Of a stretch of DNA of 47,078 nt, positions 1 to 46,895 are shown piece after piece. The position numbers and the translations under genes were made by a program. Below the pieces are notes generated by a model that was not told the DNA's origin, made no database searches, and was given only the letters and a program-made list of their open reading frames with translations. Location of the stretch: positions 1-47,078 of the forward strand of contig LCEZ01000003.1 of assembly GCA_000995845.1 (NCBI GenBank), in the 5' to 3' direction. This DNA is from Parcubacteria group bacterium GW2011_GWD2_43_10. Lineage in GTDB: Bacteria; Patescibacteriota; Patescibacteriia; Veblenbacterales; UBA10138. Every line of letters begins with the position of its first letter. Positions within the stretch are counted from its first letter, which is position 1.

Positions 1-2
1 AA

Positions 3-188
3 ATTGTTGAAGGAACTGAGTTGAAGGCCTCAAAGGAAACACTTGGCTTTATACTTAAATCTATATCAGATCTATATTCTTCACCAATGGTAAACATAAA
101 GAATAATAGGGACGGAGAAAAGGAAAGTAGCATAGCTATAGCATCTCAGGTCCAAAATATTATTAAGGATGGAATGAATAAATCTTGA
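3..188 (+). CDS. 3' end of a gene running off the window edge (62 codons, unknown function)
   Basis: Frame is open from the window edge to TGA at 186-188 (...IASQVQNIIKDGMNKS*). No recognisable motif. Confidence 0.3.
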   Translation: MVEGTELKASKETLGFILKSISDLYSSPMVNIKNNRDGEKESSIAIASQVQNIIKDGMNKS

Positions 189-250
189 GAAAAATTTCAG
201 AAATTTCGAGAAATGGAATAGTAGAGTTACCCAACTAGAGTATTAATGGT

Positions 251-270
251 TACGTAACAGGCTACGTAAC
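251..270. repeat. TACGTAAC octamer pair, 12-bp phasing
   Basis: TACGTAAC at 251-258 and 263-270, embedded in GGTTACGTAACAGGCTACGTAACC. Confidence 0.8.
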
Positions 271-325
271 CTCGGCGTCTGGGTTTCCACATTAATCTTG
301 CTCTAATGAGGACTAATAATAAATT

Positions 326-826
326 ATGACATGGTTATACGTATTAGTAATAGTAATCGGAGTGCTGGTGGTGGCTGTTAAGATTTTTGATTTGCCGATT
401 GGGCAGGATAAGAAGAAATCAACTTACCGCTATCAGCGGAAGGAGTTTTTTATGAGTCGGCCTGAACATCTATTTTTTGATGTTTTGGTATCAATAGTAG
501 GGGATAGGTATTATGTTTTTTCGCAAGTGCATTTATCAACGATTTTAGATAATAAAGTCAAAGGCCAGAATTGGCGTGGCGCGTTTCGGCATATTGACGA
601 AAAGTCGGTTGATTTTGTGATATGCGATAAGGCTTATATCAAGCCTTTGCTCGCCATTGAGCTTGACGATAGCAGTCATGAACGAGCTGGCAGGCAAGAT
701 AGAGATGCTGAGGTTGAGCGGATTTTTAAAGAAGTCGGCTTGCCGCTGCTGCGCCTTGCCAACCAAAATCAATACAATAAGGACGAAATTAGGAATCAGA
801 TTTTTCAAGCCTTAAATATTACGTAA
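326..826 (+). CDS. DUF2726-family protein (PD-(D/E)xK nuclease-like fold) with N-terminal TM helix
   Basis: N-terminal hydrophobic helix. Motif HIDEKSVDFVICDK...LLAIELDDSSH...RDAEVERIFKEVGLPLLRL matches my memory of the DUF2726 core. Confidence 0.7.
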   Translation: MTWLYVLVIVIGVLVVAVKIFDLPIGQDKKKSTYRYQRKEFFMSRPEHLFFDVLVSIVGDRYYVFSQVHLSTILDNKVKGQNWRGAFRHIDEKSVDFVICDKAYIKPLLAIELDDSSHERAGRQDRDAEVERIFKEVGLPLLRLANQNQYNKDEIRNQIFQALNIT

Positions 827-863
827 CTTATTACGTAACAGCTTACGTACCTGGCTCCAATTC
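820..863. repeat. TACGTAAC octamer triplet (12-bp phasing) fused to a CTGGCTCCAATTC core
   Basis: TACGTAAC at 820 and 832, TACGTACC at 844, then CTGGCTCCAATTC at 851-863. The first octamer contains the stop codon of the DUF2726 gene. Confidence 0.8.
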
Positions 864-927
864 ACCCGAATTCATCCCTTTTCACCACTTTCCTATTTGC
901 CTAAATAGGAAAATACTCTACTTTCAC

Positions 928-957
928 CTGGCTCTAATTCGCGCGAATAGGCGAATA
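928..957. repeat. Palindrome-core repeat, short form, copy 1
   Basis: CTGGCTCTAATTCGCGCGAATAGGCGAATA. Contains the perfect 12-bp palindrome ATTCGCGCGAAT. Confidence 0.9.
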
Positions 958-982
958 TAACAAATGTGATTATAAATATCTT

Positions 983-1363
983 ATGACAAACATAGCAATT
1001 CCATCGATAAAAATAATATTATATTTTCAAGGAGAAGTATTATTGTTAAGCGCTGAGGGCAGCTGGGATTTGCCAGGTGGAAGAATGGAATATGGAGAAC
1101 ATATTTTTGATTGCTTACATCGAGAACTAAAGGAGGAGCTTGGTGTTGATGTTCAATTCAAGACAGAGCCTAAAGTAGTCCGAGTATACGACTATACACC
1201 GAGGGCTGATGGCGTTCATCGTTTATACGTTGTTTATGCTTATAATTTGGATGAGAAGATTCAGGTTAAATCTGAACAGGTACAATGGTTGAATGCCGAT
1301 ATGGTGCGGGAACTAAAGCATGATGAAAATTGGAAACAGATGATTTTAAATTTTATTAGTTAG
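983..1363 (+). CDS. NUDIX hydrolase
   Basis: Nudix box GGRMEYGEHIFDCLHRELKEELGV (GX5EX7REUXEEXGU). Confidence 0.85.
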   Translation: MTNIAIPSIKIILYFQGEVLLLSAEGSWDLPGGRMEYGEHIFDCLHRELKEELGVDVQFKTEPKVVRVYDYTPRADGVHRLYVVYAYNLDEKIQVKSEQVQWLNADMVRELKHDENWKQMILNFIS

Positions 1364-1364
1364 G

Positions 1365-1396
1365 TACGTAACTAATTATGTACCTGGCTTTAATTC
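1365..1396. repeat. TACGTAAC octamer pair (12-bp phasing) fused to a CTGGCTTTAATTC core
   Basis: TACGTAAC at 1365, TATGTACC at 1377, CTGGCTTTAATTC at 1384-1396. Same order as the 820-863 module. Confidence 0.8.
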
Positions 1397-1417
1397 ACCC
1401 ATCTGCACTAATTTCAA

Positions 1418-1447
1418 CTGGCTCTAATTCGCGCGAATAGGCGAATA
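1418..1447. repeat. Palindrome-core repeat, short form, copy 2
   Basis: 30/30 identical to copy 1. The upstream TTTCA is also shared. Confidence 0.9.
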
Positions 1448-1463
1448 GTGCTAAGCTAGCTTT

Positions 1464-1724
1464 ATGAAGGATATTGAGAAAATATTAAAGGCCTTAGCCA
1501 ACCGCCGCCGTTTGGCCATAATAAAATACCTCAATTCCCGCCATGAAGCGGCGGTGGGTGATATTGCCACCGCCATCAAACTGTCGTTGAAGGCAACATC
1601 TAAACATTTAGTAATCTTGCATAATGTGGATATATTAGAACGGGAGCAGCGCAGTCTTCTGATGTATTATCGGTTAGCTGATTCTCTGCCTAAGCTTGCC
1701 CGTTCAATTATTCACTATCTCTAA
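1464..1724 (+). CDS. ArsR/SmtB-family winged-helix transcriptional regulator
   Basis: LKALANRRRLAIIKYL...VGDIATAIKLSLKATSKHLVILHNVDILEREQR is typical ArsR HTH. The stop codon lies inside repeat copy 3. Confidence 0.8.
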   Translation: MKDIEKILKALANRRRLAIIKYLNSRHEAAVGDIATAIKLSLKATSKHLVILHNVDILEREQRSLLMYYRLADSLPKLARSIIHYL

Positions 1725-1744
1725 TTCGCGCGAATAGGCGAATA
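1715..1744. repeat. Palindrome-core repeat, short form, copy 3
   Basis: CTATCTCTAATTCGCGCGAATAGGCGAATA (28/30). Supplies the TAA stop of the ArsR gene. Confidence 0.9.
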
Positions 1745-1763
1745 GTAATAATCGAGTCATTAT

Positions 1764-2249
1764 ATGTCTTATACTAAAAAGTTAATGCCCATACTGGCCA
1801 TTGCAGTGGCAGCCGGCTTCCTGACCGATTATATCGGCCTGTTTAATTTTGGCTGGATGTTCATAGCAGCCCCGGCGGCGGCGGGCGTGCTTTTGGCGAT
1901 AGTTCAGAATGAGACTTCAAGTTATAGATTTTTGGATAAATTAGTCATTGGTTCGTTTGTATATAGTTTTATCTTCGCCGGTTTGGCTGTGGTCCATATG
2001 TACTTTTCGTCGGTTGATTGGTACCTGGCACACCCAAAATTATCCTTTGGCATGAGCTTTAATTTTTTGGATCATCTCTGGTTAGCACTAGCCTTATCTT
2101 TCATCGCTTTTATGGGCGGCCTAGTGGGCATAGTAGGCAAGGGTTTTTATATTTTGCATTCTGCCAAGTCCGCCTCTGCATCTAATTCCTCCCTGCGGGA
2201 GGTAAACGCGCACCTGTCTCTCGTAGGGAGAAATAGGCGAATGGTATGA
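1764..2249 (+). CDS. Multi-pass membrane protein, unknown function. The last ~24 codons are encoded by repeat copy 4.
   Basis: Four or more hydrophobic segments. The C-terminal tail SNSSLREVNAHLSLVGRNRRMV is read through the repeat. Confidence 0.55.
   Translation: MSYTKKLMPILAIAVAAGFLTDYIGLFNFGWMFIAAPAAAGVLLAIVQNETSSYRFLDKLVIGSFVYSFIFAGLAVVHMYFSSVDWYLAHPKLSFGMSFNFLDHLWLALALSFIAFMGGLVGIVGKGFYILHSAKSASASNSSLREVNAHLSLVGRNRRMV
2176..2242. repeat. Palindrome-core repeat, long form, copy 4
   Basis: CTGCATCTAATTC-[ctccctgcgggaggtaaac]-GCGC-[acctgtctctcgtagggag]-AAATAGGCGAAT. Confidence 0.85.
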
Positions 2250-2268
2250 TGTTTGCTAAGGTTAAACT

Positions 2269-2529
2269 ATGGTAGATTGGAAAGCTTGGTTTAAAAAAGT
2301 ATTTTATAAGGATTCTCCAGCTATTAAGGTAGCGGGGGTGTTGCTAATTATAATTGGCTTTGCCGCGCTTATTACCCCTTTTAGCCCAGGTTCGTGGCTG
2401 ATATTCATTGGCTTAGGATTTTGGGGCGTGCGTTTGGCATTTTGGGAACGCCTTAAAGTAATGTTGAAAGATAAATACAATTCTTGGAAGAATAGAAAAT
2501 CATCTGGCTCTAATTCCTCCCTACGGTAG
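2269..2529 (+). CDS. Small two-TM membrane protein. C-terminus and stop are encoded by repeat copy 5.
   Basis: Hydrophobic core VAGVLLIIIGFAALITPFSPGSWLIFIGLGFWGV. The tail SGSNSSLR* lies inside the repeat. Confidence 0.5.
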   Translation: MVDWKAWFKKVFYKDSPAIKVAGVLLIIIGFAALITPFSPGSWLIFIGLGFWGVRLAFWERLKVMLKDKYNSWKNRKSSGSNSSLR

Positions 2530-2571
2530 GTAAACGCGCGGTTGTCTCTCGTAGGGAGGAATAGGCGAATA
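2504..2571. repeat. Palindrome-core repeat, long form, copy 5
   Basis: CTGGCTCTAATTC-[ctccctacggtaggtaaac]-GCGCG-[gttgtctctcgtagggagg]-AATAGGCGAATA. Confidence 0.9.
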
Positions 2572-2579
2572 ATATAAAT

Positions 2580-3071
2580 ATGGTAATTAAAGCCAAGATA
2601 ATATGGGGCGGGAAAGAACATAGTATTGAGTACCATGACGCCGATTCATTTTTAGAATTACCCGCAGATAAGATCACACAGGCCTATGGGGTTTGTTTTG
2701 TTGATGACAAAATTGTAATTGGTTTACGCGGAGCTAAACAAACCTGGGGTATTATTGGCGGTACGGTAGAGCCAGGCGAAACACCTGAACAAACATTGAT
2801 TCGCGAGGTACAAGAGGAATCAAATATGCGTGTACTTAAATATCTACCTTTGGGATATCAAATAGTTACCAGGCCTGATGGCTCTATAAACTACCAACTG
2901 CGTTATTGCTGTATGGTTCAACCAATTGGAAATTTTGTTAGTGATCCGGCTGGTAGTATTGTGGAAATTAAGTTAGTAAATCCAGCTGACTACAAAGAAT
3001 ATTTTGATTGGGGTGAAGTTGGTGATCGTATAATAGCGCGAGCCTTGGAACTCAAACTAAAGATTATCTAG
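2580..3071 (+). CDS. NUDIX hydrolase (second, divergent paralog)
   Basis: Nudix box GGTVEPGETPEQTLIREVQEESNM. Confidence 0.85.
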   Translation: MVIKAKIIWGGKEHSIEYHDADSFLELPADKITQAYGVCFVDDKIVIGLRGAKQTWGIIGGTVEPGETPEQTLIREVQEESNMRVLKYLPLGYQIVTRPDGSINYQLRYCCMVQPIGNFVSDPAGSIVEIKLVNPADYKEYFDWGEVGDRIIARALELKLKII

Positions 3072-3080
3072 TTCTAAATT

Positions 3081-3314
3081 ATGCCAATCAATAAAGCTTG
3101 GCACTTGGAGCACAAGATGCCAAAAAATCCGACTGAAGCTGAGTGCCTACGCTGGCACCTGAGCCACGTTAAGCACTGCACCTGTTGGCCATTGCCGAAA
3201 TCTTTAACTAGCAAAATTAAAAAATGCAGTCGTGGGCATTATTATCTTAGTTCTGGTCCGTGCCCCAAGTGCTGGCCTGGTTACAAAAAGCACAAAACTC
3301 CCAAAAAGAGGTAG
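3081..3314 (+). CDS. Small Cys/His-rich basic protein (putative zinc-binding)
   Basis: HLSHVKHCTCWP and CSRGHYY...CPKCWPG motifs, lysine-rich tail. Confidence 0.5.
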   Translation: MPINKAWHLEHKMPKNPTEAECLRWHLSHVKHCTCWPLPKSLTSKIKKCSRGHYYLSSGPCPKCWPGYKKHKTPKKR

Positions 3315-3323
3315 AATGTAGCT

Positions 3324-4229
3324 ATGTCTAATATTACTCGTATAAGTATTTATCAGTTTACTTATTTAGCCGGTCTGACTTTATTGCTGGTGGTTTTTGT
3401 GTTAATTTCCAACCTTTCTATTGTTGGCTCGCAGAATTGCTCATTCAAGTGGCAAAAAAGTAGAGTAGCAGCTGACCCGTTGGATGCTACTTATTATTTT
3501 GAAGGTAATCCAGTAACGCTAATTAATGGTCTGGCGCAAGAGTCAGTAGCTGGGGCGAGTGTTTTAATAACTCGCGTCTGGAGTGAACCAGCCATGGGGG
3601 ATTTAAACGCTGACAGCCGCAATGATTATGCATTTATTATTACTCAAGAGGCCGGCGGCAGCGGCAGTTTCTTTTATATAGCGGCGGCCCTTGGCTATGG
3701 CAATGGTTATATTGGCACTAATGCGGTTTTGCTTGGTGACCGCATTACCCCGCAAAATATTTCTGTTTCCCAGAGGCAGATTTTAGTTAACTACGCCGAG
3801 CGTTTGCCCGATGAACCTATGACGGCGAAGCCATCAGTGGGCCGTTCCGCTTATTTGAGCGTATCTGGTTCGCGGCTGTTACTCACTGGACCAAAATTAA
3901 ACGATAAGATTCAAGTAACTGAGCCGTTGCCAAATGCACTTGTATCCAGTCCTTTGATGGTGAGTGGGCAAGCTCGGGGCACTTGGTATTTTGAAGCCAG
4001 TTTTCCAGTCAGCCTCCTAGAGGCTAATGGTAATAATATAGCAACTGATCCGCCCTACATTATGACTGATAAGGAATGGATGACCACTGACTTTGTGCCG
4101 TTTGAGGCGATACTGACATTTACTCCGCCTGCCACCAAGACCGGGTGGCTGATCTTGAAAAAGGATAACCCCTCAGGTTTGCCCGCAAATGATGATTCAA
4201 TTTCTATACCAATACGCTTTGCTGAATAG
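3324..4229 (+). CDS. Membrane-anchored protein with C-terminal Gmad2 immunoglobulin-like domain
   Basis: N-terminal TM helix. The C-terminal segment IQVTEPLPNALVSSPLMVSGQARGTWYFEASFPVSL...FVPFEAILTF resembles Gmad2 Ig-like domains. Confidence 0.65.
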   Translation: MSNITRISIYQFTYLAGLTLLLVVFVLISNLSIVGSQNCSFKWQKSRVAADPLDATYYFEGNPVTLINGLAQESVAGASVLITRVWSEPAMGDLNADSRNDYAFIITQEAGGSGSFFYIAAALGYGNGYIGTNAVLLGDRITPQNISVSQRQILVNYAERLPDEPMTAKPSVGRSAYLSVSGSRLLLTGPKLNDKIQVTEPLPNALVSSPLMVSGQARGTWYFEASFPVSLLEANGNNIATDPPYIMTDKEWMTTDFVPFEAILTFTPPATKTGWLILKKDNPSGLPANDDSISIPIRFAE

Positions 4230-4240
4230 CAGATATTTAT

Positions 4241-4552
4241 ATGCAGAAACTTACACTGGCAAACTACCTTGAATATTTAAAAGATAACCCAAATAAGTAT
4301 TGGTTCAGGCGTAAACTTTACGGCTGGGGCTGGACACCAGCCACTTGGCAGGGCTGGCTGACCTTGTTAATTTTTATTTTGATTATTCCGCTTAATTTTT
4401 ACCGGATTGATTCGGTGTCGCACTCAGCTAGTGATACTTTGATTAATTTCATTCCCCAGACTCTCTTGCTGACAATATTGCTTTTAATAGTTTGTTTTAT
4501 TAAGGGTGAACCGCCGCGCTGGCAATGGGGAATACCTGACAAAAAAGATTAA
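4241..4552 (+). CDS. Small membrane protein, unknown function
   Basis: Two hydrophobic helices. Tight spacing within the same-strand gene run. Confidence 0.5.
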   Translation: MQKLTLANYLEYLKDNPNKYWFRRKLYGWGWTPATWQGWLTLLIFILIIPLNFYRIDSVSHSASDTLINFIPQTLLLTILLLIVCFIKGEPPRWQWGIPDKKD

Positions 4553-31014: not shown

Positions 31015-31405
31015 TTTGCTCACCTCAACCTTATAAGCCGAATTCTGTACCCTGCGCGAGGCAGGGCGGTGATTATCTATCTAGATCCTGATTCGCACCA
31101 GGATTCAAGCTACCAACCCGTCCGCCAAGATGCGGACCTACTTGGTATTGCACCGGGTAGAGTTTACCTAGCCATCAATGTTGCCATAGATACTGGTGAG
31201 CTCTTACCTCACCGTTTCACCCCTATCTTCAATGATTTTATTAAAGTGGGTTTGTTTTCTGTTGTACTTGTCCTGCGATCCGATTACTCGGATCAACGGC
31301 TCCAATTAGGAGTTACCCTTCCCTTAAATTAGCGGGAACACTGTGGTGTTCGGACTTTCCTCTCCGTAAAATACGGAGCAATCACCTGGGTTGACGTAAG
31401 CGGCT
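31015..31405 (-). ncRNA. rnpB: RNase P RNA, bacterial type A
   Basis: The minus strand carries GAGAGGAAAGUCCG (plus 31351-31364) and ACAGAAUUCGGCUUAU (plus 31033-31048), the two P4 strands. Also GGUGAGGUAAGAGCUCACC. P1 GCUUAC/GUGAGC and P2 UCAACC/GGUUGA close the molecule. Confidence 0.85.
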
Positions 31406-46793: not shown

Positions 46794-46864
46794 TGGGGGA
46801 TCGTCTAATGGTAGGACACCACCCTTTGGAGGTGGCTATGATGGTTCGAATCCATCTCCCCCAG
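46794..46864 (+). tRNA. tRNA-Gln (anticodon TTG), CCA not encoded
   Basis: TGGGGGA-TC-GTCT-AATGGTA-GGAC-A-CCACC-CTTTGGA-GGTGG-CTAT-GATGG-TTCGAAT-CCATC-TCCCCCA-G. U1-A72 and G73 as in bacterial tRNA-Gln. Confidence 0.9.
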
Positions 46865-46895
46865 CAGTGCATAGGAAAATCATTTTTAAACTTTA

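What the first reader, a model, noticed from the sequence alone, without database searches (positions are those of the whole stretch)
820..2571. Cassette-like array: successive small same-strand ORFs are each separated by a copy of one imperfect-palindrome repeat
Seen directly:
- Five copies of CTGGCTCTAATTC...AATAGGCGAATA lie at 928, 1418, 1715, 2176 and 2504. Two related CTGGCTYYAATTC cores lie at 851 and 1384.
- All fall within 1.7 kb. Each full copy sits between two short unrelated ORFs (DUF2726 | NUDIX | ArsR | membrane | membrane | NUDIX).
- Each copy ends 8-26 nt before the next start codon.
- Copies 1 and 2 are 30/30 identical although the flanking genes are unrelated.
- The ends of the element form an imperfect inverted repeat (CTCTAATTC / GAATAGGCG) with unpaired bases. 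The centre is variable in length (30 vs 67-68 bp).

Small promoter-poor ORFs of miscellaneous function, each followed by a variable-length imperfect palindrome, is the architecture of integron cassette arrays and CALINs. I do not see canonical attC R-boxes (RYYYAAC/GTTRRRY), and no integrase lies in the window. It could therefore be a different recombination-site family, a REP/MITE-like terminator family, or operators for the embedded ArsR regulator. Copy 2 lies 16 nt upstream of the arsR start.
Basis: partly seen in the sequence, partly recalled or inferred. Interest (0 to 1): 0.75.

Follow-up and report, generated by a model that had tools for sequence, protein, structure and literature searches.

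The report
ArsR-type operator array in CPR bacterium
The repeats are real, but they are most likely not integron-type recombination sites: they look like the DNA-binding sites of the small ArsR-type regulator encoded among them, and this regulator-plus-palindrome pair is conserved almost letter for letter across the Patescibacteria (CPR) radiation and appears to be undescribed.

Summary
**Observation: confirmed.** Five intact copies of one quasi-palindrome lie between same-strand small genes at 928-2571. Three are short (30 nt) and two are long (68 nt). Three decayed copies are also present.

**Interpretation: the integron/CALIN reading fails.**
- There are no R-boxes.
- No integrase lies within 10 kb upstream (in sister strains), and none was seen among the genes annotated downstream.
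- The short copies are too short for attC.
- In related genomes, "empty" sites carry no copy of the repeat.

**What it is.**
- The core ATTCGCGCGAAT, inside TCTAATTCGCGCGAATAGGCGAAT, occurs in at least 119 loci across many Patescibacteria lineages.
- Its one constant partner is an 86-aa ArsR/SmtB-type winged-helix gene.
- In 77 loci chosen by protein similarity alone, 72 arsR genes have the core within 100 nt upstream and 63 have it at or after the stop codon.
- The core sits at helically phased distances (about 11 bp) from a -10 box that lies 12 nt before the ATG, which implies leaderless mRNAs.
- Residues of the recognition helix co-vary with the central bases of the palindrome.

**Best explanation (about 0.68).** The window holds five operator/promoter units of an autoregulated CPR-wide ArsR-type regulator.

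**Unexplained.**
- Hairpin-expanded long forms of the repeat.
- The second operator at the arsR stop codon.
- Module turnover between related genomes.
- The signal the regulator senses.

The parts
928..957 (+). Operator copy 1 (short form; core palindrome ATTCGCGCGAAT at 937-948), upstream of NUDIX126
   Evidence: Exact 26-mer. Shares 38/40 nt with copy 2. The core starts 46 nt before the ATG at 983.
971..976 (+). Candidate -10 box TATAAA, 12 nt before the NUDIX126 ATG (leaderless geometry)
   Evidence: Read. Same -12 geometry as in 27/57 arsR orthologues. Inferred, and not found by the consensus scan.
983..1363 (+). NUDIX hydrolase gene (126 aa), flanked by copies 1 and 2; absent in strain L138
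   Evidence: Pfam PF00293, E=1.3e-14. L138 lacks it.
1418..1447 (+). Operator copy 2 (short form; core 1427-1438), 37 nt before the arsR ATG
   Evidence: The upstream operator is seen in 72/77 protein-ascertained arsR orthologues.
1449..1457 (+). Candidate extended -10 TGcTAAGCT (hexamer 1452-1457, i.e. -12 to -7 from the arsR ATG)
   Evidence: Read. A -10 at -12 is found in 27/57 orthologous promoters, 15 of them with TGn.
1464..1724 (+). arsR-like gene: 86-aa ArsR/SmtB-family winged-helix regulator without Cys or a canonical metal site; its stop codon is the TAA of copy 3
   Evidence: NCBIfam NF033788, 61.4 bits (cut-off 55). Pfam HTH_5. PDB relatives Lmo1102/CadC-like, HlyU, NolR, SmtB, CzrA. 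555 homologues, and the named ones shown are CPR or unclassified-bacterium MAGs.
1715..1744 (+). Operator copy 3 (short form; core 1724-1735), overlapping the arsR stop and 40 nt before the next ATG
   Evidence: An operator at or after the stop is seen in 63/77 orthologues, often in the same register.
1764..2249 (+). Membrane-protein ORF (161 aa) whose last ~24 codons are encoded by long copy 4
   Evidence: No significant family match.
2176..2243 (+). Operator copy 4 (long form): TCTAATTC + hairpin H1 + CGCGC + hairpin H2 + AATAGGCGAAT
   Evidence: D2, I1. DNA fold -12.8 kcal/mol, z=-2.15. Same architecture as the long forms in other lineages.
2242..2250 (+). Candidate extended -10 TGGTATGAT abutting copy 4, before the PGPGW gene
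   Evidence: Read. Resembles the 'core+14' class GAATGGTAGAAT seen at 13 arsR and 14 non-arsR promoters.
2269..2529 (+). PGPGW small membrane protein (86 aa); its tail is encoded by long copy 5
   Evidence: Pfam PF09656, E=6.5e-8.
2504..2571 (+). Operator copy 5 (long form)
   Evidence: I3: 25-nt arms, 80% complementary. DNA fold -15.2 kcal/mol, z=-4.77.
2580..3071 (+). Second NUDIX hydrolase gene (163 aa), 8 nt after copy 5; AATAAT at -12
   Evidence: Pfam PF00293, E=3.3e-11.
851..909 (+). Two decayed operator copies (CTGGCTCCAATTCACCCGAATTCATCC at 851-877; CCTATTTGCCTAAATAGG at 892-909)
   Evidence: Read. Tandem intact and decayed copies also occur in L084.
1384..1400 (+). Decayed operator copy (CTGGCTTTAATTCACCC)
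   Evidence: (D6).
818..851 (+). TACGTAAC-N4 repeats (x3) directly after the DUF2726 stop; also at 249-270 and 1364-1383. A second, species-specific repeat family of unknown role that accompanies some unit boundaries
   Evidence: D4, I4, I6. Also seen in L138 and L135.

Best explanation
**What it is.** The repeat is the cognate DNA-binding site (operator) of the 86-aa ArsR/SmtB-type winged-helix protein encoded at 1464-1724.

**Anatomy.**
- The site is a ~24-32-bp quasi-palindrome.
- It is built of CTAWTC/GAWTAG hexamers at 8-bp period around a central GCGC.
- The core is ATTCGCGCGAAT.

**Proposed mechanism.**
- A dimer, or a pair of dimers, binds the site.
- The site overlaps or abuts a -10-only or extended -10 promoter. 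That promoter starts transcription at or a few nucleotides before the ATG, giving leaderless mRNA.
- Binding therefore controls initiation, most simply as a repressor.
- The regulator gene itself carries one operator in its promoter (autoregulation).
- It carries a second operator at its stop codon, which serves the next gene's promoter and/or cooperates with the first.

**The window.** It holds five such operator/promoter units in a row: NUDIX, arsR, two small membrane proteins, NUDIX. This is a local cluster of the regulon, not a promoterless cassette array.

**Cassette-like turnover.** The identical 24-40-nt sites are also substrates for ordinary recombination or deletion. This gives the region a cassette-like turnover between strains.

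**Shown.**
- The tight, phylum-wide linkage between the regulator gene and the site.
- The promoter-proximal, helically phased position of the site.
- Co-variation of the recognition helix with the centre of the site.

**Inferred.**
- Actual binding.
- The sign of regulation.
- The promoters in the window.
- The regulon's function.
For: Hits come from Saccharibacteria, Paceibacterota, and Nomura-, Kaiser-, Doudna-, Uhr-, Kerfeld-, Lipton-, Harrison- and Giovannonibacteria MAGs, several loci per genome.

**2. ArsR is the only recurrent neighbour.**
- HTH_5 matches 23/93 upstream and 14/76 downstream genes.
- tblastn with the window ArsR hits 40/119 loci, while the other window genes hit 0-2 loci.
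- Of 42 arsR genes in these loci, 39 have the core upstream, 37 at the stop and 34 both.

**3. Test without motif ascertainment.** 80 metagenome loci were fetched by ArsR protein similarity only. Of the 77 with enough flank:
- 72 have the core (up to 2 mismatches) within 100 nt upstream.
- 63 have it at or after the stop.
- 60 have both and 2 have neither.
- By my own calculation, chance is about 0.4% per 100 nt.

**4. Promoter geometry.**
- TAnnnT starts exactly 12 nt before the arsR ATG in 27/57 unique upstream regions, 15 of them with TGn.
- The distance from core to ATG or to the -10 clusters at about 11-bp steps. Vector strength is 0.48-0.57 at 11 bp, and 0 of 5000 random sets reach it.
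- The same 'core+14' operator/-10 fusion and the same phasing occur at non-arsR genes (14/72; p=0.0002).
- Extended -10 boxes are enriched on the + strand downstream of the motif: 33/130 against 2/130 on the - strand.

**5. Co-variation of protein and site.**
- Helix xTSKHL goes with centre GCGC/GAGC in 54/67 cases. Helix xTSRHL does so in 0/10 (Fisher 1e-6).
- STS goes with GTAC in 6/16 cases. ATS does so in 0/61 (Fisher 3e-5).
- The two copies flanking one arsR share the central tetranucleotide in 47/67 cases.

**6. The protein is a bona fide ArsR/SmtB member.**
- It passes the curated NCBIfam cut-off and has PDB relatives in the family.
- Its recognition helix and wing are nearly invariant across 33 orthologues. 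This fits a nearly invariant site.
Against: - **No binding or transcription data exist.**
- **Long forms.** Two of the five copies in the window carry 19-60-nt hairpins between the half-sites. These should break a simple dimer operator on B-DNA.
- **Orientation.** The motif is tied more tightly to the end of the co-oriented upstream gene (114/131; stop codons inside the motif) than to a downstream start. About 30/131 cases look convergent. Some of those are ORF-calling artefacts or have tRNA genes downstream, but some are followed by a terminator and a convergent gene.
- **Promoter scan.** The consensus -35/-10 scan of the window region is at chance. The promoters rest on cross-locus statistics only.
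- **Spacing.** The distance from motif to -10 is variable, though phased.
- **Statistics.** The co-variation and phasing tests are not corrected for phylogenetic relatedness.
- **Sensing.** The protein has no Cys and no canonical metal site, so no sensing mechanism can be proposed.
Confidence: 0.68

Rival explanations
1. The repeat is a dedicated site-specific recombination site, attC-like or of a new family. It folds as a hairpin or cruciform, and gene units are inserted and excised at it by a recombinase encoded elsewhere. The ArsR-like protein would be either the commonest cassette or an accessory site-binding factor.
For: - The ends are conserved, and the centre is variable in length and always self-complementary, up to 86 nt.
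- Copies sit in direct orientation at the 3' ends of genes, with stop codons inside them.
- Units bounded by copies are present or absent among ~99%-identical strains: L010/L135/L139 carry extra HNH, ORF81 and GIY-YIG units, and L138 lacks NUDIX126.
- A 33-40-nt direct repeat flanks arsR2 in L159 and NUDIX126 in the window.
- arsR has no conserved synteny.
Against: - No R-boxes are present.
- No integrase lies within 10 kb upstream or among the genes annotated in the ~10 kb downstream of this array in any strain.
- No recombinase family is recurrent near 63 multi-copy loci. Only 2/125 proteins carry a serine-recombinase Zn ribbon.
- The inner array order is identical in all ~20 strains.
- In the L178/L159 comparison, whole [site]-arsR-[site] modules differ, yet the empty positions carry no site at all. 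That is not what site x site recombination leaves behind.
- The helical phasing with the -10 box and the co-variation with the HTH helix are unexplained by this model.
- No hits were found in 2.9 million viral contigs.
Confidence: 0.08
2. The element acts as a folded single strand: the RNA 3' UTR of the upstream gene, or ssDNA. It would be a REP/BIME-like stabiliser, a processing site or a factor-dependent terminator. Its link to arsR would then be indirect.
For: - It is strongly co-oriented with, and lies 0-30 nt behind, the upstream gene.
- The long forms carry stable hairpins, including a cUUCGg-type loop (L126) and G-U-compatible pairs, with a few compensatory changes.
- The long copies fold much better than shuffles, z=-4.8.
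Against: - The short form (about 90% of copies) can form only a 4-bp stem. Its fold is -4.9 to -6.2 kcal/mol with z of -1.5 to -2.6.
- No U-tract follows the repeats, and no terminator-like site lies at any copy.
- Conservation is of sequence, not of pairing. The arms are invariant and only the centre varies.
- The upstream arsR copy is kept even where the preceding gene is on the other strand. It is phased with the -10 box, which is a DNA-level property.
- There are only a few copies per genome, unlike REP elements.
- No Rfam family matches.
Confidence: 0.07
3. The ArsR-like protein does bind the palindrome, but the purpose is not promoter control. The sites would serve as insulator or roadblock elements between transcription units, or as nucleoid-organising or segregation sites comparable to parS or NBS.
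For: - A second site at the 3' end of arsR is present in 63/77 loci.
- Sites lie between convergent genes and before terminators.
- Clusters of up to 10 copies occur within 4 kb.
- Orientation follows gene direction, and therefore replication direction.
- The protein has no ligand-sensing residues.
Against: - The -12/-10 geometry and the 11-bp phasing with promoters point to interplay with RNA polymerase.
- No ParA/ParB-type partner genes were seen among the neighbours.
Confidence: 0.1

Closest known systems
ArsR/SmtB-family autorepressors with inverted-repeat operators (SmtB 12-2-12 sites; CzrA; non-metal members NolR, HlyU, PagR, SdpR)
   Same: - Same protein fold and family.
- Small dimeric winged-helix protein.
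- Palindromic site overlapping its own promoter.
- Site length of about 24-32 bp, compatible with one or two dimers.
   Different: - No CXC or alpha-5 metal site.
- Not linked to metal-resistance genes.
- A new site sequence (ATTCGCGCGAAT).
- The site is duplicated at the 3' end of the gene, with the stop codon embedded in it.
- Hairpin-expanded variants of the site exist.
- Both protein and site are conserved across a whole radiation.
HrcA-CIRCE
   Same: - An almost invariant inverted-repeat operator kept across very distant lineages.
- Placed at promoters of a dispersed stress regulon.
- The element also lies between genes of operons.
   Different: - A different regulator family.
- CIRCE is 9-N9-9 and controls chaperone genes.
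- Here the regulon looks like nucleotide/DNA-damage 'sanitation' genes plus small membrane proteins, and the regulator gene is sandwiched by its own sites.
Integron attC arrays / CALINs
   Same: - Small same-strand genes, each followed by an imperfect palindrome with conserved ends and a centre of variable length.
- The next gene starts a few nucleotides downstream.
- Some presence/absence of units between strains.
   Different: - No R''/R' boxes.
- The short form is only 24-30 nt.
- The sequence is conserved, not only the structure.
- No integrase is present.
- The element is dispersed in several loci per genome.
- Empty sites lack a copy.
- The units appear to have their own promoters.
Dual-operator repression loops (lac O1/O2, gal OE/OI, deo)
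   Same: Two copies of the operator bracket or enter the regulated gene, a few hundred bp apart (297 bp in the window).
   Different: The spacing between the two copies is not conserved (about 290-340 bp). No evidence exists for tetramerisation of this protein.
REP/BIME and MITE-like intergenic palindromes
   Same: - Intergenic imperfect palindromes behind genes.
- They cause assembly breaks, seen as N gaps at copies in older MAGs.
- Local tandem and decayed copies.
   Different: - Only a few copies per genome.
- No RAYT or transposase partner was seen.
- No terminal inverted repeats or target duplications.
- Tied to one regulator gene and to promoters.

Membership tests
Integron attC site / CALIN | R'' (RYYYAAC) and R' (GTTRRRY) boxes at the two ends | tested here: not met
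   No copy contains either box on either strand. There is no RYYYAAC at all in 800-2600 on the + strand, and no RYYYAAC...GTTRRRY pair on either strand.
Integron attC site / CALIN | Length of about 57-141 bp, with structure conserved rather than sequence | tested here: not met
   Three of the five copies are 24-30 nt. About 90% of 137 copies elsewhere are the exact 24-mer, so the sequence is conserved across lineages.
Integron attC site / CALIN | Integron integrase (tyrosine recombinase) and attI next to the array (complete integrons only) | tested here: not met
   No Phage_integrase hit within 10 kb upstream, or among the genes with precomputed Pfam hits in the ~10 kb downstream, in sister strains. 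Window ORFs beyond about 6 kb were not annotated. None recurs near 63 multi-copy loci. CALINs lack the integrase by definition, so this alone is not decisive.
Integron attC site / CALIN | One site per cassette, with the empty allele keeping one site | tested here: not met
   In L178 versus L159, modules carry two sites and the empty positions carry none.
Integron attC site / CALIN | Hit to the IntegronFinder attC covariance model | not testable with these tools
   The model is not available here. Rfam gave no relevant hit.
ArsR/SmtB-family regulator with cognate operator | Protein matches the family model above the curated threshold | tested here: met
   NCBIfam NF033788, 61.4 bits against a cut-off of 55. 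Pfam HTH_5, 30 bits against 22. Full-length alignment to the Lmo1102, HlyU, NolR and SmtB structures.
ArsR/SmtB-family regulator with cognate operator | Inverted-repeat site in or overlapping the regulator's own promoter | tested here: met
   72/77 protein-ascertained orthologues have the palindrome within 100 nt upstream. A -10 lies at -12 from the ATG in 27/57. The core is phased at about 11 bp. Promoter activity itself is inferred.
ArsR/SmtB-family regulator with cognate operator | Specific protein-DNA recognition | tested here: inconclusive
   Recognition-helix residues co-vary with the central bases of the site (Fisher 1e-6 and 3e-5).
ArsR/SmtB-family regulator with cognate operator | Metal- or ligand-sensing site (alpha-3 CXC or alpha-5 His/Asp/Glu) | tested here: not met
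   The window protein has no Cys, and ELCVCDL is replaced by EAAVGDI. The C-terminal residues are not conserved among 33 orthologues. The protein therefore resembles non-metal members of the family.
REP/BIME or MITE | High copy number dispersed through the genome, with an associated RAYT or transposase, TIRs and TSDs | tested here: not met
   Five intact copies in one 1.7-kb stretch and none in the other 45 kb of the window. A few loci per genome elsewhere. No transposase family among the neighbours. Whole genomes could not be scanned.
Intrinsic terminator | GC-rich hairpin followed by a U-tract | tested here: not met
   No terminator-like site at any copy. The copies are followed by AGGCGAATAGT.
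Known RNA family (Rfam 15) | Covariance-model hit | tested here: not met
   Nothing at gathering score. Only chance miRNA-hairpin hits at E up to 10.

The most novel reading that the evidence does not exclude
The palindrome is a structure-forming (hairpin or cruciform) DNA site, and the ArsR-like winged-helix protein marks it. Together they would form an integrase-independent module-exchange system of CPR bacteria. In this reading, operator-flanked genes, including the regulator itself, are swapped between genomes and positions, and the hairpin-expanded 'long forms' are functional intermediates or variants rather than damage. The evidence does not exclude this, for three reasons:
- Modules with both flanking sites turn over between near-identical genomes.
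- Units vary between strains.
- The inserts are always self-complementary and sit at two symmetric points of the site.
Probability: 0.1. Interest if true: 0.85.

Novelty: new member of a known kind. Interest (0 to 1): 0.52.

Why it matters
Almost nothing is known about transcriptional regulation in Patescibacteria/CPR, which make up a large share of bacterial diversity and are mostly uncultured.

If the reading is right, this finding offers several things:
- **A testable regulator-operator pair.** It is conserved across the radiation. The recognition helix is nearly invariant, and the 24-nt site is identical in distant classes.
- **A way to read a regulon from MAG sequence.** The candidate genes include NUDIX, Fpg, MPG and Ham1 enzymes, MsrA and small membrane proteins.
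- **Evidence on mRNA structure.** These genes appear to be transcribed from -10-only promoters as leaderless mRNAs.

It also carries a practical warning. Arrays of small genes separated by imperfect palindromes can mimic integron cassette arrays or CALINs in genome scans. These repeats also break MAG assemblies.

Tried and rejected
- **Rfam.** Searches at gathering score over the whole window and at E up to 10 over 700-2700 gave no relevant family.
- **attC R-box search.** Nothing found.
- **Apparent deletions at long copy 4.** The deletions in L001, L003 and L004, and the break in L008, looked like structural variants at the repeat. They are N-filled scaffold gaps, so I rejected them as artefacts.
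- **Exact look-up of the DUF2726 protein.** Not on record.
- **Viral contigs.** The 19-mer gave no hits.
- **Literature.** I searched for the core sequence, for ArsR in CPR/Saccharibacteria and for integrons in CPR. Nothing relevant turned up.
- **Conserved operon partner downstream of arsR.** None exists; the neighbours are diverse.
- **Constant spacing between the two arsR-flanking sites (loop model).** The spacing is not constant.
- **The motif as a promoter in itself.** I rejected this because the spacing to the -10 varies and the hexamers do not fit. The long forms also change the distance between the two ends by about 38 bp.
- **DNA uptake sequence.** Rejected because the copy number is far too low.
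- **Consensus sigma-70 promoter/terminator scan of 200-3400.** At chance level. The window's promoters therefore remain inferred.
- **First ORF-based orientation census.** It was noisy, and several 'convergent' cases were ORF-calling artefacts or tRNA genes.

Full report
**1.

The window has three exact copies of CTCTAATTCGCGCGAATAGGCGAATA, at 932, 1422 and 1719. No shuffle of 100 gave any match, even at up to 3 mismatches. The 3' end AATAGGCGAAT occurs five times, all between 946 and 2570, and nowhere else exactly in 47 kb.

Two copies, at 2175-2247 and 2503-2575, are 68-73-nt long forms that are 86% identical to each other. They share only their ends with the short form.

The intervening ORFs are, in order:
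- DUF2726;
- NUDIX (126 aa);
- an ArsR-type HTH (86 aa);
- a 161-aa membrane protein;
- a PGPGW membrane protein (86 aa);
- NUDIX (163 aa).

The two 'cores' at 851 and 1384 are decayed full copies, and a third decayed palindrome lies at 892-909. The arsR stop codon is the TAA of TCTAATTC. The two membrane-protein ORFs read into the long copies.

As single-stranded DNA the short copies fold weakly (-4.9 to -6.2 kcal/mol, z -1.5 to -2.6). The long copies fold better (-12.8 and -15.2 kcal/mol, z -2.2 and -4.8).

**2. Anatomy of the element**

- The short form is TCTAATTC-GCGC-GAATAGGCGAAT, a perfect 12-bp palindrome (ATTCGCGCGAAT) with asymmetric flanks.
- Unbiased flank positions in 126 distinct copies add a weaker tCTaWTC on the left and AGtt on the right.
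- The full element is therefore a ~32-nt quasi-palindrome of four CTAWTC/GAWTAG hexamers at 8-nt period around GCGC.
- Some lineages have the perfectly symmetric TCTAATTCGCGCGAATTAGA.

**3. The same locus in sister strains**

The organism is a Candidatus Veblenbacteria (Parcubacteria group) population. About 20 assemblies carry the locus at 98-99.9% identity.

All keep the inner order NUDIX-arsR-TM-PGPGW-NUDIX with its five copies. The left edge varies:
- L010, L135 and L139 have extra HNH, 81-aa and GIY-YIG genes, each bounded by a short, long or partial copy.
- L138 lacks NUDIX126 and has an Mrr_N gene directly before copy 2.
- Further upstream lies a strain-variable defence island (MmeI, DUF6998, DUF2726, an N6/N4 methylase).
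- No integrase is annotated within 10 kb upstream.

The apparent deletions at long copy 4 in older MAGs are N-filled scaffold gaps.

**4. The element is not private to this genome**

One scan of species-representative genomes used TCTAATTC-N0-20-GCGC-N0-20-AATAGGCGAAT.
- Hits come from Saccharibacteria, Paceibacterota, and Nomura-, Kaiser-, Doudna-, Uhr-, Kerfeld-, Lipton-, Harrison- and Giovannonibacteria, among others.
- There are often several loci per genome.
- About 90% of the 137 copies are the exact 24-mer.
- No copy was found in 2.9 million viral contigs.
- No Rfam family matches.
- The literature library holds nothing on it.

**5. Context census**

- Copies are co-oriented with the upstream gene in 114/131 cases and lie 0-30 nt behind its stop. 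The stop is often the TAA or TAG inside the motif. The next same-strand start follows 0-100 nt later.
- Upstream genes are ordinary (dnaJ, pheS, enolase, DHFR and so on).
- The only recurrent neighbour on either side is an ArsR-type HTH: 23/93 upstream genes and 14/76 downstream genes.
- tblastn with the window ArsR finds orthologues (40-71% identity) in 40/119 loci. The other window genes are found in 0-2 loci.
- Of the 42 arsR genes, 39 have the core upstream, 37 at the stop and 34 both.
- L084 shows a second array like the window's: 10 copies in 4 kb, with arsR in the middle.

**6. A test free of motif ascertainment**

An alignment of 33 orthologues shows a nearly invariant recognition helix S(L/F)KATSKHL and wing EREQRSL. 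I used it to fetch 80 metagenome loci by protein similarity alone. Of the 77 arsR genes with enough flank:
- 72 have the core (up to 2 mismatches) within 100 nt upstream;
- 63 have it at or within 60 nt after the stop;
- 60 have both;
- 2 have neither.

My own calculation puts chance at about 0.4% per 100 nt.

The genes downstream of arsR are unrelated from locus to locus. So [site]-arsR-[site] is a self-contained module.

**7. Promoter geometry**

- In 57 unique arsR upstream regions, a TAnnnT hexamer starts exactly 12 nt before the ATG in 27, and 15 of those have TGn. This implies -10-only or extended -10 promoters and leaderless mRNAs.
- The core starts at -26, -37, -46 to -53, about -60 and so on. 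The periodicity is about 11 bp, with vector strength 0.48-0.57, and 0 of 5000 random sets reach that value.
- In the -26 class the right arm GAATGGTAGAAT is itself the extended -10.
- The same 'core+14' fusion and the same phasing occur at non-arsR genes (14/72; p=0.0002).
- Extended -10 boxes are enriched downstream on the motif strand: 33/130 against 2/130 on the other strand.

In the window (read):
- Copy 1 has TATAAA at -12 from the NUDIX126 ATG.
- Copy 2 has TGcTAAGCT ending at -7 from the arsR ATG.
- Copy 4 is abutted by TGGTATGAT.
- Copy 5 has AATAAT at -12.

These are inferences. The simple -35/-10 consensus scan of the region is at chance and finds no terminator at any copy.

**8. Co-variation of protein and site**

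- The central tetranucleotide varies between lineages (GCGC, GAGC, GCAC, GTAC, GAAC, GGCC, GTGA). The two copies flanking one arsR share it in 47/67 cases.
- Helices reading xTSKHL go with GCGC/GAGC in 54/67 cases. Helices reading xTSRHL never do (0/10; Fisher 1e-6).
- STS goes with GTAC in 6/16 cases. ATS does so in 0/61 (Fisher 3e-5).
- These tests are not corrected for phylogeny.

**9. Why not an integron or another recombination site**

- No R-boxes are present.
- The short form is too short for attC, and it is conserved in sequence rather than in structure.
- No integrase lies near this array in any strain.
- No recombinase family is recurrent near 63 multi-copy loci. Two of 125 proteins have a serine-recombinase Zn ribbon.
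- The sites are dispersed over the genome.

The most telling case is L178 versus L159. Their flanking genes are 94-100% identical, but they differ in these ways:
- Their arsR alleles are only 58% identical at the protein level.
- The alleles carry different site variants (GCGC versus GTAC).
- The modules sit at different intergenic positions.
- The corresponding empty positions carry no site.

Modules therefore move with both sites, not by crossover at a site.

**10. What stays unexplained**

*Long forms.*
- They carry GC-rich hairpins of 19-60 nt at two symmetric points, TAATT^CGCGCG^AATAGG.
- The hairpin may sit on the left, on the right or on both sides.
- The stem base is conserved (CCCGCC/GGAGGG-like) and the nested extensions are unrelated.
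- A few compensatory changes are present.
- A plain dimer operator should not tolerate such inserts.
- Possible explanations are extrusion as a cruciform, palindrome growth by template switching, and inactivated operators. None was tested.

*Other open points.*
- The role of the second site at the arsR stop is open. It could be the next gene's operator, a loop or a roadblock.
- The protein has no Cys and no canonical metal site, so the signal it senses is unknown.

**11. Regulon hint**

Among 64 non-arsR genes directly downstream of copies, those with Pfam matches include:
- MPG, Fpg x2, Ham1 x2, NUDIX x2, MsrA and an ExoX-type exonuclease;
- PD-(D/E)XK x2, SpoU x2, APH x2, TspO and small membrane proteins.

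With the window's two NUDIX genes, this suggests a nucleotide- and DNA-damage 'sanitation' response. No background comparison was made.

**12. Verdict**

The repeat family is real. It is most likely the operator of a CPR-wide, autoregulated ArsR-type regulator (confidence about 0.68). The window shows a cluster of five operator/promoter units rather than a promoterless cassette array.

This is a new member of a known kind of system. Three features are unusual: radiation-wide letter-level conservation, sites on both sides of the regulator gene, and hairpin-expanded variants.

The rivals cannot be excluded without experiments: a recombination site (0.08), a folded-strand element (0.07) and a non-promoter DNA-binding role (0.10).

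Noticed in passing
window 249-270, 818-851, 1364-1383; L138 1095-1114; L135 2035-2054 and 2452-2471: A second repeat family, TACGTAAC-N4-TACGTA(A/C)C (12-nt period, each unit a small palindrome). It lies directly after the stops of DUF2726, NUDIX126, Mrr_N and HNH, just before an operator copy. It appears species-specific, and its role is unknown.
   Followed up: partly
L017, L035, L099, L120 (30-70 nt upstream of operator copies); L178 ~3520-3545: Another recurrent palindromic motif, AACATTCTCAAGAATGTGAGAATGT, lies next to operator copies in several Paceibacterota and Nomurabacteria MAGs.
   Followed up: no
window 1-326 and the region upstream in L001-L010, L130-L139: The DNA left of the array is a strain-variable defence island among ~99%-identical strains. 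It carries MmeI-type RM, DUF6998, DUF2726, Mrr_N, an N6/N4 methylase, HNH and GIY-YIG. The window itself differs from most strains upstream of position 315.
   Followed up: partly
L001 2064-2814: Three copies of a different unit lie between 59-87-aa ORFs. Each has a terminator-like CCCGCGGG + T-run followed by TTGACA. This is a separate small-gene array, without the ArsR site.
   Followed up: no
L001 ~11104, L003, L004 (long copy 4); L008 700-1528: Older MAG assemblies have N-filled gaps exactly at repeat copies. The repeats break or confuse assembly and mimic structural variants.
   Followed up: yes
window 2175-2249 and 2503-2529: The C-terminal tails S(A/G)SNSSLR... of the 161-aa and 86-aa membrane proteins are encoded by the long repeat itself. 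In these copies the TAA of TCTAATTC is out of frame.
   Followed up: partly
arsR upstream regions in L140-L219; window 971-976, 1452-1457, 2568-2573: A -10 hexamer sits exactly 12 nt before the ATG in about half of the arsR orthologues. This suggests that leaderless mRNAs from -10-only promoters are common in these CPR lineages.
   Followed up: partly
L036, L039, L053, L072, L085, L088 (contigs CAYHOC01, CAYGDX01, CAZNKO01, CAYVOI01): MAGs titled 'uncultured Gammaproteobacteria' carry the motif, which is otherwise seen mainly in MAGs labelled as CPR or left unclassified. The taxonomic labels are probably wrong.
   Followed up: no
window 4241-4552; L035, L084: Homologues of the 103-aa membrane protein (YLKDNP..YWF.RK.YGWGW) sit next to operator arrays in two unrelated MAGs. 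It is the only other window gene that recurs near arrays.
   Followed up: no
window 31018-31397 (-), 44318-44517 (-), 46794-46865 (+): RNase P RNA (class A, 216.7 bits) and tRNA-Thr, tRNA-Gly and tRNA-Gln genes. Nearly all genes of the window are on the + strand, and cumulative GC skew rises monotonically.
   Followed up: no
L015 ~3150, L043, L058 ~300, L128: Some operator copies are followed by tRNA genes rather than protein genes.
   Followed up: no
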